Below, in pieces: positions 2,079 to 62,247 of a stretch of 64,000 nt of DNA. Position 1 is the stretch's first letter, and every line of letters starts with the position of its first letter. The stretch comes from Octopus vulgaris. Its lineage: Eukaryota. Both the position numbers and the translations under genes were made by a program. The notes beneath the pieces are model-generated. The model did no database searches, was not told where the DNA came from, and was given only the letters and a program-made list of their open reading frames with translations. The DNA is taken from contig OX597814.1 in assembly GCA_951406725.2 (NCBI GenBank), positions 2,170,001-2,234,000 on the forward strand, in the 5' to 3' direction.

Positions 2079-2288
2079 CGCAATGGCCTAGTGGTTAGGG
2101 CAGCGGACTTGCGGTCGGAGGATCGCGGTTTCGATTCCCAGACCGGGCGTTGTGTGTGTTTATTGAGCGAAAACACCTAAAAGTTCCACGAGGCTCCGGC
2201 AGAGGTGGTGATCCCTGCTGTACTATTTCACCACTCTAAAAGGCGGTGCTCCAGCATGGCCGCAGTCAAATGACTGAAACAAGTACAA

Positions 2289-2328
<40 letters not shown>

Positions 2329-2552
2329 CATTTTTTTTTTTTTTTTTTTTGTACTTGTTTCAGTCATTTGACTGCGGCCATGCTGGAGCACCGCCTTTTG
2401 AGTACAGCAGGGATCACCACTCCTGCCGGAGCCTCGTGGAGCTTTTAGGTGTTTTCGCTCAATAAACACACACAACGCCCGGTCTGGAATCGAAACCGCG
2501 ATCCTCCGACCACAAGTCCGCTGCCCTAACCACTAGGCCATTGCGCCTCCAC
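2077..2552. repeat. Palindrome of two chimeric SINEs (B head + A tail), tail-to-tail
   Basis: 2077-2286 vs reverse complement of 2351-2552, centred on A-run/(TA)n/T-run. Confidence 0.9.
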
Positions 2553-10650: not shown

Positions 10651-10862
10651 TCTTTTACTCTTTTACTTGTTTCAGTCATTTGACTGCGGCCATGCTGGAG
10701 CACCGCCTTTAGTCGAGCAAATCGACCCCGGGACTTATTCTTTGTAAACCCAGTACTTATTCTATCGGTCTCTTTCTTCGAACCGCTAAGTGACGGGGAC
10801 GCAAACACACCAGCATCGGTTGTCAAGCAATGCTAGAGGGACAAACACAAACACACACGCAT

Positions 10863-10915
<53 letters not shown>

Positions 10916-11080
10916 TACGCCAGGCTTCTTTCAGTTTCCGTCTACCAAATCCACTCACATGGCACTGGTTGGCCCGGGGCTATAGCAGAAGACACTTGCC
11001 CAAGATGCCACGAAGTGGGACAGAACCCGGAATCATGTGTTTGGTTAGCAAGCTACTTACAACACACCCACTCCTGCGCC
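10651..11080 (-). mobile_element. SINE family A, full length, young
   Basis: Closely similar to 28285 and 44845. Confidence 0.92.
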
Positions 11081-11088
11081 TACATACA

Positions 11089-11148
<60 letters not shown>

Positions 11149-11681: not shown

Positions 11682-11735
<54 letters not shown>

Positions 11736-11786
11736 TTTATAGAAGGAGCTTATTTACTGTGGTTAACCCCGACTCAACCCGGGACC

Positions 11787-11829
<43 letters not shown>

Positions 11830-21453: not shown

Positions 21454-22565
21454 CAGGGTGCGTCAGAATATTTGAGGCTATTTGTATGAATTTAGAAAAA
21501 GTCGCATAGCTATAGAAGAAGAGGTGTAATTGAAAACAACATGGTGCAAATAATTTTTAGAATCCTTTTATCTCATCTATTTCGATGGCTGCTGCAATAC
21601 GAGGTCGGAAGCGCTGACATGCCCGAATCAGATGATCTTAGTTAACTTTTGACAAGGTGCTGGTTATGAGGGATTGAATGATGTTATGGTAGAGTTGCTT
21701 GACTTTTCACTTGACTACGTGCCATACGTAATGATCCAGTGGATTGAGGTCTGGTGAGCAAGGAGGCCATGTGCCTGGGAGAATATGATCAGGAAGATCA
21801 GCAAGCAGCGACGCTTGGATTGTGCTAGCCTTATGAGACCGCACAGACTTCTTGTTGGTAGACGTTCAATCTTCAGCTGCATACTCTGTCTATCCAGGGC
21901 CTCACAACTTTCTACATCTCGGTGTAGACAGCAGCATTGACTCTTAAACACTTTAAAAAAAAAAAAAAGTGATTAGGCATGGCATCGTTGCTGACGACTC
22001 CCAGAGTCATCACAGCTGCTGGGAACTTAGTATGCATGACTGTTGGAACCCCATTCGGGTCTATACATAGCCCTTTGCCGTTCCTTCGGTTTACCATTTG
22101 GTCCTGATGGAAGACATTTCTGATCGGAGAAAAACCAGAGCATACCAGCCTCTTTGTATTTCTGACTTCTTTCGCAAGCGCTTTACACAGATCGACCGAT
22201 TCTCTGTTGTCATCTCTAACGTAAACTGATCCCACCCTCCGCATCACTTACGATTTGTATCGGATGCTTTCAAGCACAACTCTTTTGATGATACATTCTA
22301 AAACCTTGAGATCCTTTGCCATAGCTGTGATTGCCTTTCCGGGGTTTTTATTTGTTGGAAATTTGGTACTATTCTATGTGTTCTGATATCAGAACCTTGT
22401 ATATAGGTTTAGCGTTTAGCTGTTCATGTTGGGTCCCCGTCAGCGTTTTCAGTTCCTTTTGGACATTGACGACAAAGGATCAACCAGCTAACAGGAAGTA
22501 AGCTACCTATGTATCACTATGCTGCCCTTTCTCGGCAATGATTACAGCACGCTTTTTCATTGGCT
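21454..22565 (-). mobile_element. Decayed Tc1/mariner transposon, probably DD37D (maT)-like
   Basis: Minus-strand peptides PTVMHTKFPAAVMTLGVVSND and DLNPLDHYVW; terminal cagggtgcgtc; related to 61426-62247. Confidence 0.8.
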
Positions 22566-39928: not shown

Positions 39929-40324
39929 GTATATATATATGTATATATATATATGTACGTTTAAATATTTGTTGTGCAAGATTTTTTATGTGAAGTCGTG
40001 TGTTGAAACAGATATTGTTATATTTCGGAATGGTCATTTTGCCTGTTTAGCCAATAGAGATATAAGCATGCGCAAATGAAGACATACCATAGAAATACAA
40101 AATGGCTGACGGTTAGTAAGAAGAGACACAAATAAGACAGAAGAAAACAAAGGACCACTGATGCGGTCACAGGAGTGTGACGAAAGAACTCTGGCCGAAA
40201 TAAGATTAAGATTAATGTAAAAAATAAATAACACTGAAGCAAAATAACACCAAATATATAGTGCGTATGTTTTTATTGGCTAAACAAGCAAAATGACCAT
40301 TCCGAAATATAACAATATATATAA

Positions 40325-40381
<57 letters not shown>

Positions 40382-40390
40382 TATAGAAGG

Positions 40391-40441
40391 AGCTTCTACA
40401 GGACTAGTACTGTTTCATTCAAGAGAAATCTTCAGGAAGCT
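40391..40441 (-). ncRNA. Type-I hammerhead motif (left arm copy)
   Basis: Exact reverse complement of 42893-42943. Confidence 0.65.
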
Positions 40442-40715
40442 ATTTAACAAGAATTGTATTAGCATTTATACATTTAGAGGAGTGGTGGTGGGGGACTTTT
40501 TGGGGGTAGGCATAGCGCAAAATATCATACTTGGGGGAGTGGTCAAGGTAATAAAAAATAAAAAAATAAAAAATAATAAATAAAAAATAAAAAATAAAAA
40601 GATAAAATAAAAGAATAAAAATAAAAAATATAAAAAATATATAAAAAATATAAAAAATATATATAAAAAATATACATATGTATACACATATACATATGTA
40701 TATGTGTACATGTAT

Positions 40716-40753
<38 letters not shown>

Positions 40754-41013
40754 ATGTGTGTATGTATGTATTTGTATATGTGTGTGTGTATATGTATGTG
40801 TGCGCGTGTGTGTGTATGTTTGTGTATGTATACTTGTATATGTATATGCATGAATGTATATATATGTGTGTGTATATGTGTATTATGTATGTATTTATAT
40901 AGATATGTAGTTTATATATATATATATGTATGTATATGCATCTGTCTGTGTGTGTGTATGTGTATATATGCGTATCATTTTTGCGTATGTATACATGTAT
41001 ATGTGTATATGTA

Positions 41014-41044
<31 letters not shown>

Positions 41045-41283
41045 ATATATATATATATATGTGTATATATATATGTATATATATATATATATATGCATGC
41101 GTATGTGTATGTACATGTATATATGTATGTGTGTATATGTATATATGTCTATATATGTGAGTATGTAGTAATATTAGTATATGCATGTGTATGTATGGGT
41201 ATGTGTATCAGTGTATATGTATATATGTATGTGTGTGTGTATGTATATGTATGTATATGTGTATATATGTATGCGTATATGTG

Positions 41284-41316
<33 letters not shown>

Positions 41317-41387
41317 GTGTATATGTGTGTGTACGTATGTGTATGTGTATGTATGTGTATATATGTCTATGTATGTATGTATGTATC

Positions 41388-41439
<52 letters not shown>

Positions 41440-41716
41440 CGTGTGTGTATGTATGCATATATGTATGTATGCATGTATATGTGTATGTATATATATGTGT
41501 GTAAGTGTGTGCATATATGTATTTGTAAGTATGTGTGCGCGTATGAGTATGTATGTATGCTTGCACATGTGTATATATATATGTGTGTGTGTGTATTTAT
41601 ATGGATGCGCGTGCGTGTGTGCACGTGTATGGGTACGCATGTATATGTGTATGTGCGTGTATGCGTATACGTGTATGTATGTATGTGTGTGCGTAGATTT
41701 GTATATGTATGTGTGA

Positions 41717-41755
<39 letters not shown>

Positions 41756-41953
41756 TATAGATGGGTGTGTGTATGCGTATAAATGCATGTAAGTATGGAT
41801 GTATAGATGTATGTATGTATGTATACGTATGTATGTGTATATGTGTGTATGTATATATATGTGTGTGTATATGTGTTTGTGTATGTATATATATGTGTAT
41901 GTATGTGTGTGTATGTGTGTATGTGTATGTATGTGTATGTATGTATATATATA

Positions 41954-41999
<46 letters not shown>

Positions 42000-42458
42000 T
42001 ATGTATCTGTATGTAGGAGTATATATGTGTGTGTGTGTATGTATATGCGGGTATATATATATATATATATATATGTATATTTATTGGTGTATATGTATAG
42101 ACTAGCCTCCTAAAGTGTAGACACGAATCTGTAGGTACGAGTACGTATGTGTATATACGTGAACGTATGTAGATGTTTGTATGTATGAATATAACGCGTG
42201 CGTACGTGTATGTGTATGAGTGTACGAATGGGTGAATGTACGTGCTAATGAGTGTGCGTGCGGGAATGAGTACTTGCCTTCTAGTAGACAGACAAATGGA
42301 CAAGCAGCTATTGCCAGGATTCTTAGCCTTAGTGATCAAAGATAACAAAAGTAATAAATGAAGATAATAAAATTAAAATTAGGGAATGGGCCTGTATTGG
42401 ATTGTATATATATATATGTATATGTATATTTGTATGTATGTATGTGTGTATGTGTAGG

Positions 42459-42507
<49 letters not shown>

Positions 42508-42892
42508 AGATATATATGTGTATGTGCGTATATGTGTGTGTAGATACGTATACATGTGTGTATAGGTATAAGTGAGAATCTCCTTATTTACCTATAACTC
42601 TATCCCCCTTTTTTATATATATATTTTATATATATATTTTTTTATATATTTTTTTATATATATTTTTTATATATATTTTTTATATTTTTTATATATTTTT
42701 TATATTTTTTATTTTTATTCTTTTATTTTATCTTTTTATTTTTTATTTTTTATTTATTATTTTTTATTTTTTTATTTTTTTATTACCTTGACCACTCCCC
42801 CAAGTATGATATTTTGCGCTATGCCTACCCCCAAAAAGTCCCCCACCACCACTCCTCTAAATGTATAAATGCTAATACAATTCTTGTTAAAT

Positions 42893-42943
42893 AGCTTCCT
42901 GAAGATTTCTCTTGAATGAAACAGTACTAGTCCTGTAGAAGCT
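42893..42943 (+). ncRNA. Type-I hammerhead motif
   Basis: AGCUUC-CUGAAGA-u-UUC(ucuu)GAA-u-GAA-ACAG(uacuaguc)CUGU-A-GAAGCU. Confidence 0.65.
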
Positions 42944-43024
42944 CCTTCTATATAATAAATTAATTTTACTCTGCTATGTATTGAGTACCTTACTTACTGT
43001 GGTTAACCCCGAATCAACCCGGGA

Positions 43025-43112
<88 letters not shown>

Positions 43113-44633: not shown

Positions 44634-44836
44634 CCGGCGAGCTGGCAGAAACGTTAGCACGCCGGGCGAAATGCTTAGCGGTATTTCGTCTGCCGTTACG
44701 TTCTGGGTTCAAATTCCGACGAGGTCGACTTTATCATTCATCCTTTCGGACTGGGGTCGATGTAATCGACTTAATCCGTTTGTCTGTCCTTGTTTGTCCT
44801 CTCTGTATTTAGCCCGTTGTGAGTAGTAAAGAAATA
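44634..44836 (+). mobile_element. SINE family E
   Basis: ggcgagctggcagaaacgttagcacgccgggcgaaatgcttagcgg...gggttcaaattcc...tcatcctttcgg; the last segment recalls the Deu/Nin SINE domain. Confidence 0.8.
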
Positions 44837-44844
44837 TATATATA

Positions 44845-45006
44845 GGCGCAGGAGTGGCTGTGTGGTAAGTAGCTTGCTAACCAACCACATGGTTCCGGGT
44901 TCAGTCCCACTGCGTGGCATCTTGGGCAAGTGTCTTCTGCTATATCCCCGGGCCGACCAATGCCTTGTGAGTGGATTTGGTAGACGGAAACTGAAAGAAG
45001 CCTGTC

Positions 45007-45076
<70 letters not shown>

Positions 45077-45289
45077 ATTTGTGTGTCTGTGTTTGTCCCC
45101 CTAGCATTGCTTGACAACCGATGCTGGTGTGTTTACGTCCCCGTCACATAGCGGTTCGGCAAAAAGAGACCGATAGAATAAGTACTGGGCTTACAAAGAA
45201 TAAGTCCCGCGGCCGATTTGCTCGACTAAAGGCGGTGCTCCTGCATGGCCGCAGTCAAATGACTGAAACAAGTAAAAGAGTAAAAGAGT
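44845..45289 (+). mobile_element. SINE family A, full length, young
   Basis: Nearly identical to 28285. Confidence 0.93.
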
Positions 45290-51714: not shown

Positions 51715-51878
51715 GAAGAGAATAAAGACTAATACGAAATCCATCTTTTGGTTACTTAATCAGTTATTACTCTCTCAGCTAACACTGCGAAATTCCTTTT
51801 TTTTGTTTCTAACGGCAATATACCACGATGTCATATATATATATACTTTATTTAAAGCAGCAGAAAATTCAACAAAAT

Positions 51879-51916
51879 CTGTTACTCTGAGTTTCTCGTT
51901 GCCGTTCATCAGACAG
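51879..51916 (-). ncRNA. Minimal type-I hammerhead motif, canonical core
   Basis: CUGU-CUGAUGA-aCG(GCAA)CGa-GAA-ACUC-A-GAGU-A-ACAG; GNRA loop II, GUA triplet. Confidence 0.65.
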
Positions 51917-52680
51917 TTTTTGCTAGAATGGAACCGATATATCAATTGAATCTAGACTCTTACAAACGCTACACCTTTAAAAAAAATGGACTTGTTTGAT
52001 TGGCCCTTTAGAAATAACGGTCAATCTTCGAGCGATAAACAAAAAAAGCTCAAAAATATATGTATATATATATAAAAAATTATAAAAATTATAAAATTCG
52101 AGGAAAAAACCTTACATTGAATAAAATACATATTGACGTTAATGAAGAAAGTATAATTAATGCATAGAAATTAAAACTTATTATAAATATTACACTGCAA
52201 TACATATTTATATTAAAGTGTACATATATATATCAACATACACAGAAGGATGCGTGCAAACGCCATACATATACAGACGTATAAATATAAATCTAAAATA
52301 TACACACAAATGCATGCATACATATATGTTCGCAATCTATCTCGCACGCAAGTTAAAATCATCGATGTAGCGATTCTCATTTAGTGAGTAAAGCTTAAGT
52401 AAGGGGGACGTAAAGTTGTATCAGTATCAGTTAGAGAAAAAAACGAAAGAAAGAAAGAGAGAGAAAAAGGACCGAAGAAGGGGGAAGGAAAAAAGAAAAA
52501 GGAGGGGTGGGGAAAAAACGACTGCATGTGTATGTATCCATTCGAACTTGTGTATTTGTATACTTGTCTCCATATATGTCAATAACGCGGTTACATAGCT
52601 TGTATACATAATTTTTCTTATTTCGTTTTTTCCCCACCCCTCCTTTTTCTTTTCCTTTTTTCTTTTCATGTGTTTACTCC

Positions 52681-61428: not shown

Positions 61429-62247
61429 CTGCGATGGGTAAATTGTTGCCATTTTATATTTTTAATTTTGTGCATGCGCATTGTTTTTGATTTTTTCGAC
61501 TACAGAATATAGTAGGGTCTGTTGGGCACCGTCTGTGAGAAGAAAAGCACCATGATATAATTCACTCTGCCAGAAATTTCGAAACGACATGCTGTACTTC
61601 TTTGCATTTGCACCGTAAGCTCCAATACTAACGTTTCAGAGTGTGTGGGTGTCAATCTGAGGACATGTACCAAGAGTGATGTAAAATCAAACATCAGCAT
61701 CATGGTGTTTGGAGTGACCACTAGTGATGGCGATGTTATGCCTCCATTCATCTCCTTGCACTGCCTCAGAATCATCACGGAGGCTTACATGAGGTGCCTG
61801 GGTCAAGAAGATGGCTACTGGAAGACCCTATGTCTGGCAACAGGACTCTGCACCACGCCGCACAATCAGGACAACCCAGTCATGGCTGCAAGATAATTTC
61901 TGTGACCACCTCACCCCTAACATCGGGGCAACAAACTCCCCACACTGTAACCCCCTTGGTTATTATGTGTGGGGCGCAGTTGAGCGAGAGACCAAGAAAA
62001 CTCCTTGTAACACCAAAGATGAACTGAAGGCAAGGATCATGGTAGCATTCACCAACTTAAACAAGGAAACCATCCAGATGAGTTACAGGAGATTCCGAAG
62101 GCATCTGGAGGCCGTGGTTGAAACCAATAGCGATTTTATTGAATAAATTTGTTCTTTAGTATTTCAAAATATTTTAAATGTAATTTTTTGTAAATATATC
62201 TGTTAAAATGAGATGTCAGGGTTATTTTCATTACTCACCACACACTG
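61426..62247 (+). mobile_element. Internally deleted Tc1/mariner transposon, DD37D (maT)-like
   Basis: IMVFGVTTSDGDVMPPF; GRPYVWQQDSAP...NSPHCNPLGYYVWGAVERE...LEAVVETNSDFIE; short imperfect terminal inverted match. Confidence 0.85.

What the first reader, a model, noticed from the sequence alone, without database searches (positions are those of the whole stretch)
40372..43030. Young 2.6-kb composite: hammerhead-bearing inverted terminal repeats around microsatellite cargo
Near-identical ~300-bp arms each end in an outward-facing hammerhead (6-bp stem I, 4-bp stem III with palindromic ACUAGU loop, GUA; U-U at the base of stem II). Only the right arm continues into a tail ...ggttaaccccgaatcaacccggg(TA)n, which recurs at 11740-11790. 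This is the asymmetry expected of a PLE with an inverted 5' pLTR. The interior is almost all TATG/TG repeat, so a non-autonomous element may be moving microsatellite DNA.
Basis: partly seen in the sequence, partly recalled or inferred. Interest (0 to 1): 0.72.

Follow-up and report, generated by a model that had tools for sequence, protein, structure and literature searches.

The report
Truncated young Hydra-type Penelope retrotransposon copy
This 2.6-kb mirror-ended stretch is a shortened copy of a young, protein-coding Penelope-type jumping gene whose long tail region is mostly microsatellite, and its thousands of sister copies suggest the element's enzyme likely copies one uncut RNA twice, once from each side of the cut chromosome.

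Summary
In detail: two 303-bp arms differing by one indel, each with an outward hammerhead motif, and a tail on the right arm only. The reading 'non-autonomous element with cargo' does not hold. The interior matches, at 99% of aligned bases, the 2.9-kb microsatellite-rich 3' UTR of an autonomous 5.2-kb Penelope-like element in this genome (713-aa ORF, Hydra-clade motifs, telomerase-like fold). The window copy is 5'-truncated with an inverted arm, a published layout. The family is young and large (3,655 exact right ends). Inverted arms start at one fixed site, forward arms at another 73 nt downstream; 51 of 60 inverted ends had a tailed partner, none a tailless one. The arms of one insertion share alleles (326 of 329 calls). 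1,217 junctions join both arms at the ribozyme's first base, 29 nt after a TATA box, against 21 at its cleavage site. Best model: two-ended priming on one uncut RNA (inferred). The family adds only about 0.05-0.08% of the genome as microsatellite. This scan noted the one-sided tail before, in other families on other DNA.

The parts
40372..40674 (-). Inverted arm: antisense copy of the element's 3' end, from site A (outer end) inward to the U-rich tract
   Evidence: Identical to 42659-42962 but for one indel; outer end 25 nt past the cleavage site, family range 22-27
40391..40441 (-). Hammerhead motif of the inverted arm
   Evidence: Core found on - strand at 40435
40675..43033 (+). Forward arm: 5'-truncated copy of the autonomous element, 3' UTR to site B
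   Evidence: 2306 matches, 17 mismatches, 81 gap columns against L032:2827-5195
40675..42610 (+).
   Evidence: Same anchors in the same order in other copies and downstream of the ORF
42611..42785 (+). U-rich tract; likely reverse-transcription drop-off zone that sets the apparent 300-bp repeat length
   Evidence: 12 of 64 arm ends fall in it, 4.6% expected, p = 3e-5
42864..42870 (+). TATA box (TATAAAT), predicted promoter
   Evidence: 29 nt before 42893; kept in 157 of the 167 copies in the ten commonest variants listed
42893..42943 (+). Type I hammerhead motif; first base = predicted transcription start; predicted cleavage after 42937
   Evidence: 1,217 head-to-head junctions at its first bases
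42963..43033 (+). One-sided tail between site A and site B; in tandem copies it runs on into the 5' UTR and ORF
40333..40371 (.). (TA)n target, left part
43034..43100 (.). (TA)n target, right part
   Evidence: 38 of 38 other right ends run into (AT)n
11730..11793 (+). 64-bp insertion of a sister subfamily: 22-nt inverted arm ending 1 nt short of the cleavage site, 3-nt overlap, 45-nt tail piece, in (TA)n

Best explanation
The stretch is a 5'-truncated copy of a young autonomous Hydra-type Penelope-like retrotransposon with a microsatellite-rich 3' UTR, and its two arms were likely made by two reverse-transcription events primed from the two ends of one cut in a TA repeat, on one RNA not cut by its ribozyme. 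Shown: family structure, two fixed outer ends (site A for the inverted arm, site B for the forward arm, 73 nt apart), TA targeting, shared alleles between arms, arms running through the cleavage site. Inferred: a TATA promoter starts the RNA at the ribozyme's first base; the RT/GIY-YIG protein cuts both strands of (TA)n; one DNA end primes at site B and the other at site A; both cDNAs grow inward and are joined end to end. Priming at the sites near the RNA's 5' end gives 205-bp palindromes that stop at +1; priming at the downstream sites of a read-through RNA gives long copies such as this one, whose inverted arm fell off in the U-rich tract and whose forward arm stopped inside the 3' UTR.
For: Autonomous parent: ORF followed by the same interior, ribozyme and tail; intact 713-aa ORF in L080; top fold match telomerase TERT, E 2.7e-8; Hydra motifs. 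Polarity: 33 of 39 tail-selected loci have an inverted arm and 0 of 39 an inverted tail; 32 inverted ends read all stop 22-27 nt past the cleavage site (one after allowing a 1-nt insertion); 60 loci selected on the inverted end gave 51 A-B, 0 A-A, 9 with no partner within 9.5 kb. One template: 326 of 329 calls at polymorphic sites agree between arms, 82 disagreements expected at random pairing, and 11 rare variants sit in both arms (94 insertions); 6 of 32 long insertions have both arms ending within 30 nt, 1.1 expected, p = 0.0004. Either arm can be the longer (12 vs 13 of 32). Run-off at +1: 25 of 40 short insertions have both arms ending at +1 to +6; 1,217 such junctions genome-wide against 21 at the cleavage site, which has the same AGCT tetramer. 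In vitro, an anole PLE protein cuts and extends both strands, starts at two RNA sites that bound the tail, is predicted to be a dimer, and uses uncleaved RNA (PMC11167929, main text and part of methods read).
Against: No experiment; the two-ended mechanism is read from end products. Allele sharing would also follow from fold-back synthesis, from two RNAs of one master copy, from gene conversion, or from polishing of palindromes in the assembly; 12 rare variants lie in one arm only and L035 disagrees at 2 sites. In vitro the anole protein showed no strand difference in start site, whereas this family is almost strictly A-B; two ORF-bearing insertions (L074, L089 of 21) have a tail at both ends. 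5 of 39 loci have no inverted arm and 1 ends in an assembly gap. The transcription start is predicted, not mapped; D. virilis Penelope has a TATA-less internal promoter (PMC2377424, passages). The 58-fold deficit at the cleavage site could partly reflect poor integration of 22-nt arms. Inner arm ends inside microsatellite were placed by unique 14-mers and are approximate. No target-site duplication can be read in (TA)n.
Confidence: 0.65

Rival explanations
1. Same element, but the inverted arm comes from fold-back: one cDNA primed at site B turns round and copies itself (or self-priming on an antisense template, as proposed for rotifer Penelopes), and later one-sided deletions at the centre make the arms unequal.
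For: Explains allele sharing and perfect palindromes at +1; palindromic junctions were read this way in PMC3846280 (passages).
Against: The inverted arm reaches further in than the forward arm in 12 of 32 long insertions, by up to 3.8 kb, which needs large secondary deletions in copies that are about 99-100% identical; both arms drop off in the same U-rich tract (5 left, 7 right); it gives no reason for a fixed outer end at site A; both strands are extended in vitro.
Confidence: 0.2
2. Two-ended priming as in the best model, but the sharp stop at 42893 marks a splice acceptor or a protein/structure block, not a transcription start.
For: The site reads TAG|C with a branch-point-like CTAAT 23 nt upstream (consensus recalled); in D. 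virilis the intron ends at the 5' end of helix I (PMC4209133, passages).
Against: A spliced template would add a shared upstream exon at the junction; none is seen in the short insertions printed or the 50 junctions listed. Long arms pass this point freely. A conserved TATA box lies 29 nt upstream.
Confidence: 0.1
3. One reading: a distinct non-autonomous element with fixed 300-bp inverted repeats that carries captured microsatellite cargo.
For: This copy has no ORF; the interior is shared by many copies.
Against: The interior is the parent's 3' UTR; none of the 33 other two-armed loci repeats this copy's pair of inner ends; other copies continue into the ORF.
Confidence: 0.03
4. The arms are two independent insertions into one TA run, or an assembly fold-back.
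For: The family does nest in TA runs, including its own UTR (L076, L086); palindromes are hard to assemble.
Against: A-B pairing and allele sharing; the two ends differ in the same way at hundreds of loci; short-read contigs of two DNA-type runs hold left-arm/right-arm joints (table 5), though none of the listed pieces had 31 letters on both sides of the central junction.
Confidence: 0.02

Closest known systems
Hydra clade of C-terminal-endonuclease Penelope-like elements (Craig et al. 2021, PMC8557442; section 11, passages and supplement rows read), including Hydra-1_Obim of Octopus bimaculoides
   Same: Single ORF with RT and C-terminal GIY-YIG; DKT, CxCX5C, CxxC and CxH motifs; hammerhead near the 3' end; (TA)n targeting; the supplement's Hydra alignments share the visible motif blocks with L080 (by eye).
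   Different: Unit about 5.2 kb, with a 2.9-kb 3' UTR that is 64% microsatellite, against 'generally <3 kb'; RWR for RWK. Hydra-1_Obim is 2,507 bp with another hammerhead sequence, so it is a different family. No tree with the published references was built.
Insertion layout of EN+ PLEs: partial tandem, inverted 5'-truncated copy, one-sided 30-40-bp tail (PMC8557442, PMC3846280, PMC2377424; passages)
   Same: Exactly this layout, with palindromic junctions.
   Different: Tail is 73 nt; the two outer ends, allele sharing and the +1 stop are counted here over hundreds to thousands of young copies.
PAc, Poseidon element of Anolis carolinensis studied in vitro (Frangieh et al. 2024, PMC11167929)
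   Same: Two start sites bounding the tail, AT-rich target, uncleaved RNA as template.
   Different: Other clade; PAc start sites lie inside the ORF and are not homologous to the target, whereas sites A and B here lie in the 5' UTR and end in 2-4 nt of AT that match the target; no strand bias in vitro, near-strict A-B pairing here.
Animal non-LTR retrozymes (bioRxiv 10.64898/2026.07.22.740005; passages)
   Same: Short hammerhead-bearing non-coding derivatives of PLE ends.
   Different: Those are tandem units that amplify; the 205-bp palindromes here are dispersed and have varied junctions, as expected of independent products of the parent (not tested further).

Membership tests
Penelope-like elements (EN+) | Single ORF with telomerase-like RT | tested here: met
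   713-aa ORF, YRDD at 347; model pLDDT 88, best PDB match TERT. Pfam and PDB sequence searches found no RT profile.
Penelope-like elements (EN+) | C-terminal GIY-YIG endonuclease | tested here: met
   YIG at 603 with downstream R, E, N pattern; PF01541 hit in 1 of 27 aligned homologues, E 1e-5, not in L080 itself.
Penelope-like elements (EN+) | Partial tandems, inverted 5' copy, one-sided tail | tested here: met
Penelope-like elements (EN+) | Hammerhead motif in the pseudo-LTR | tested here: met
   Core intact; subfamily changes over 241 non-independent copies fall at N7 (29), loop 2 (19) and loop 3 (71). Usual G-C at the base of stem II is U-U.
Penelope-like elements (EN+) | Ribozyme self-cleavage activity | not testable with these tools
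   Needs a cleavage assay; only 21 junctions sit at the cleavage site.
Hydra clade | DKG changed to DKT | tested here: met
   DKT at 116; no DKG
Hydra clade | RWK motif | tested here: inconclusive
   RWR at 38; among 120 homologues 85 have RWK and 117 RW[KR]
Hydra clade | CxCX5C linker; CxxC and CxH around the conserved E and N | tested here: met
   567-575 and 667-697
Hydra clade | Insertion into (TA)n | tested here: met
   38 of 38 right ends; left ends likewise
Hydra clade | Generally under 3 kb (typical, not diagnostic) | tested here: not met
   Tandem period 5,193 bp on C1; 5.1-5.7 kb between ribozymes
Hydra clade | Groups with Hydra references in an RT tree | not tested
   References seen only as supplement text; compared by eye
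Non-autonomous cargo element / MITE-like | Fixed terminal repeats and fixed interior across copies, no parent with the same interior | tested here: not met
   Arm lengths vary widely and the parent has the same interior

The most novel reading that the evidence does not exclude
This family is a genomic footprint of the whole Penelope insertion cycle: a dimeric enzyme copies a single uncut RNA twice, from two fixed sites assigned to the two DNA ends; the 1,217 205-bp palindromes record the RNA's capped 5' end at the ribozyme's first base; the ribozyme does not make the template; and a U-rich drop-off tract just upstream of a TATA promoter sets pseudo-LTR length so that full-length copies keep their promoter.
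Probability: 0.4. Interest if true: 0.7.

Novelty: new variant of a known kind. Interest (0 to 1): 0.5.

Why it matters
How Penelope-like elements form tandem/inverted ends and the tail, and what their hammerhead does, are stated open questions (PMC8557442, passages). A very young family with thousands of near-identical copies and an intact ORF gives countable predictions (two start sites, strand assignment, one template, uncut RNA, start at +1) and a substrate for the in vitro assay that exists for the anole element. It also shows a retroelement carrying about 1.8 kb of microsatellite in its own RNA, which hides copies from repeat annotation, though its share of the genome's microsatellite is small (1.3-2.3 Mb).

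Tried and rejected
Rfam scans found no hammerhead model match. Repeat finders on the whole window were swamped by microsatellite. Pfam and PDB sequence searches did not recognise the ORF; only the fold search did. Expression: no RNA holder listed on record; runs guessed to be RNA hold the ORF but contigs cannot show starts, strand or level, so neither expression, the start site nor cleavage was tested. One search used a pattern that fits one subfamily only (about 250 loci); one search is the corrected count. One search mislabelled 6 loci as A-A through a loose pattern; one search is the corrected count. One search dropped 3 loci through a de-duplication fault; one search's mean uses that set of 49. 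A protein search for more distant families in this genome returned only close copies (150 scored of 22,838 candidates, all at least 95% identical), so generality across families was not tested. Template cut by the ribozyme or a single circular monomer: not favoured, since arms run through the cleavage site and the two units of tandem L071 differ at a tail site. RNA editing: no clear excess; not pursued. Literature: five searches listed no paper on this family or on two-ended priming counted from PLE copies; most subscription papers and Repbase are not covered, so absence from print is not shown. PMC13282606 (passages) reports 31 recently active Penelope-like families in O. vulgaris without naming clades in the passages seen; its supplement was not read and may include this family.

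Full report
Observation. The arms are real: 40372-40674 and 42659-42962 differ by one indel. Only the right arm carries the tail, to 43033, and both ends sit in (TA)n. The repeat at 11730-11793 is a 64-bp insertion with its own 22-nt inverted arm.

Host. The window is G000:C1:2170001-2234000 of a 2.8-Gb genome. It is probably an octopus; this rests on size, microsatellite content and earlier scan notes and was not tested.

The family. The right arm plus tail found 40 near-identical places of 285 candidates, only 40 being scored. All 39 besides the window carry pieces of the interior in the same order. At L031/L032 the tail runs on into an ORF, and the ORF is followed by the interior, ribozyme and tail again. 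The window's 40676-43033 matches L032:2827-5195 with 2306 matches, 17 mismatches and 81 gap columns; the ORF stops at 2185, and the 3' UTR is 2.9 kb and 64% alternating microsatellite. So the 'cargo' is the parent's 3' UTR and the window copy is truncated inside it. Of 20 ORF-bearing stretches fetched, 1 (L080) has an open 713-aa frame and 9 break at the same C run; contigs of 4 of 4 public runs differ from the assembly by one base in that run, so those breaks are likely long-read errors. Exact end counts give 3,655 right ends and 2,071 left ends (1,275 with the longer pattern); these are lower bounds.

Classification. The predicted structure (pLDDT 88) matches telomerase TERT best. The protein has DKT, CxCX5C, CxxC..E..N..CxH, YRDD and YIG, with RWR for RWK, the marks of the Hydra clade in Craig et al. 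2021 (section 11 read). It has 1,080 homologues at E <= 1e-20 among 7,993 candidates scored, about 40% identical. Hydra-1_Obim in that paper's supplement is 2,507 bp with another ribozyme: same clade by eye, different family. The 5.2-kb size is atypical. It works like, and by motifs is, a Hydra-type PLE; no tree was built.

Ends. In loci chosen on the tail, 33 of 39 have an inverted arm and none an inverted tail; the 32 inverted ends read stop 22-27 nt past the predicted cleavage site (site A), and forward ends stop at site B, 73 nt further. In 60 loci chosen on site A (60 of the first 62 listed on C1; two in a stretch already held were skipped), 51 had a site-B partner, none a site-A partner, 9 no partner within 9.5 kb; two of those 9 are lone left arms. 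Exceptions with a tail at both ends exist (L074, L089). Arm lengths vary independently: the inverted arm reaches further in 12 of 32, the forward arm in 13 (L031 left out as it runs on in tandem, L065 not parsed). 12 of 64 inner ends fall in the U-rich tract upstream of the promoter (p = 3e-5), including this copy's left arm, and 7 of 21 ORF-bearing stretches begin in or beside it by eye. This explains the '300-bp arms'.

One template. At 12 polymorphic sites in 94 insertions, the two arms agree in 326 of 329 calls, against 82 disagreements expected; 11 rare variants are in both arms and 12 in one. 6 of 32 long insertions have both arms ending within 30 nt (p = 0.0004, approximate ends). This points to one RNA or one source copy per event; conversion and assembly polishing are not excluded.

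A sharp stop at the ribozyme's first base. 29 of the 51 resolved site-A loci are at most 270 bp, and in 25 of 40 short insertions both arms end at +1 to +6, counting window 42893 as +1. Genome-wide there are 1,217 such junctions and 21 at the cleavage site, although both points offer the same self-complementary AGCT. A TATAAAT lies 29 nt upstream. The simplest reading is run-off at the RNA's 5' end on a template that the ribozyme has not cut. A splice-acceptor reading is possible but no upstream exon appears at the junctions.

Mechanism. Shown steps: family, ends, pairing, allele sharing, targeting. Inferred: promoter and start, double-strand cut in (TA)n, priming of both ends at B and A, inward synthesis, end joining. 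The in vitro work on the anole element supplies both-strand cutting and extension, two start sites and use of uncleaved RNA, but saw no strand bias. Fold-back with later deletion is the main rival.

Microsatellite transport. True but modest: a mean of 633 microsatellite bases per insertion in 49 site-A loci gives 1.3-2.3 Mb, 0.05-0.08% of the genome (unresolved long copies excluded, so an underestimate), against 23% of this window. Where the UTR's microsatellite came from (captured host DNA or expansion in place) was not resolved.

Novelty and verdict. The layout is published and earlier scan notes report one-sided tails and a two-sided copying idea in other families (unchecked notes, not counted as support). 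New here: a Hydra-type family with a 2.9-kb microsatellite UTR, allele sharing between arms, and the 1,217:21 contrast. Identity as a truncated autonomous PLE copy: about 0.95. Mechanism: 0.65. Interest 0.5.

Noticed in passing
window 40012-40320: Older element with 57-bp inverted arms (91%) and a degenerate hammerhead-like core near 40155-40195; the young copy sits in its TA end. The same kind of end flanks L036.
   Followed up: partly
window 51830-51930 (-): A second hammerhead-bearing family running into (TA)n; resembles the Hydra-2_Amil ribozyme region by eye.
   Followed up: partly
window 33055, 33197, 47658, 59224 (+), 24960 (-): Further hammerhead-core-like motifs from a pattern scan; 33197 has a clean 4-bp stem II. 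Some may be chance.
   Followed up: no
window 2185-2440: Near-perfect 256-bp hairpin (88%) of a short repeat around a TA centre.
   Followed up: no
window 10841-11098 and 44827-45084: Two 89% identical copies of a SINE-like repeat in opposite orientation, each beside (TA)n.
   Followed up: no
window 61793-62143 (+) and 21915-22247 (-): Frames that look like Tc1/mariner transposase fragments (recalled resemblance).
   Followed up: no
L076 and L086: Short copies of the family nested in TA runs of the family's own 3' UTR, in reverse orientation.
   Followed up: no
L092, L113, L117: Short insertions with locally templated extra pieces at the central junction, like those of microhomology-mediated end joining (resemblance recalled).
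   Followed up: no
Hydra-2_Amil in the supplement of PMC8557442: A TATA-like run lies about 30-35 nt before its hammerhead stem I, the same spacing as here (by eye).
   Followed up: no
L075: An insertion with the +1 head-to-head junction, about 700 nt of ORF and a jump to the 3' ribozyme and tail: an internally deleted copy that starts at +1.
   Followed up: no
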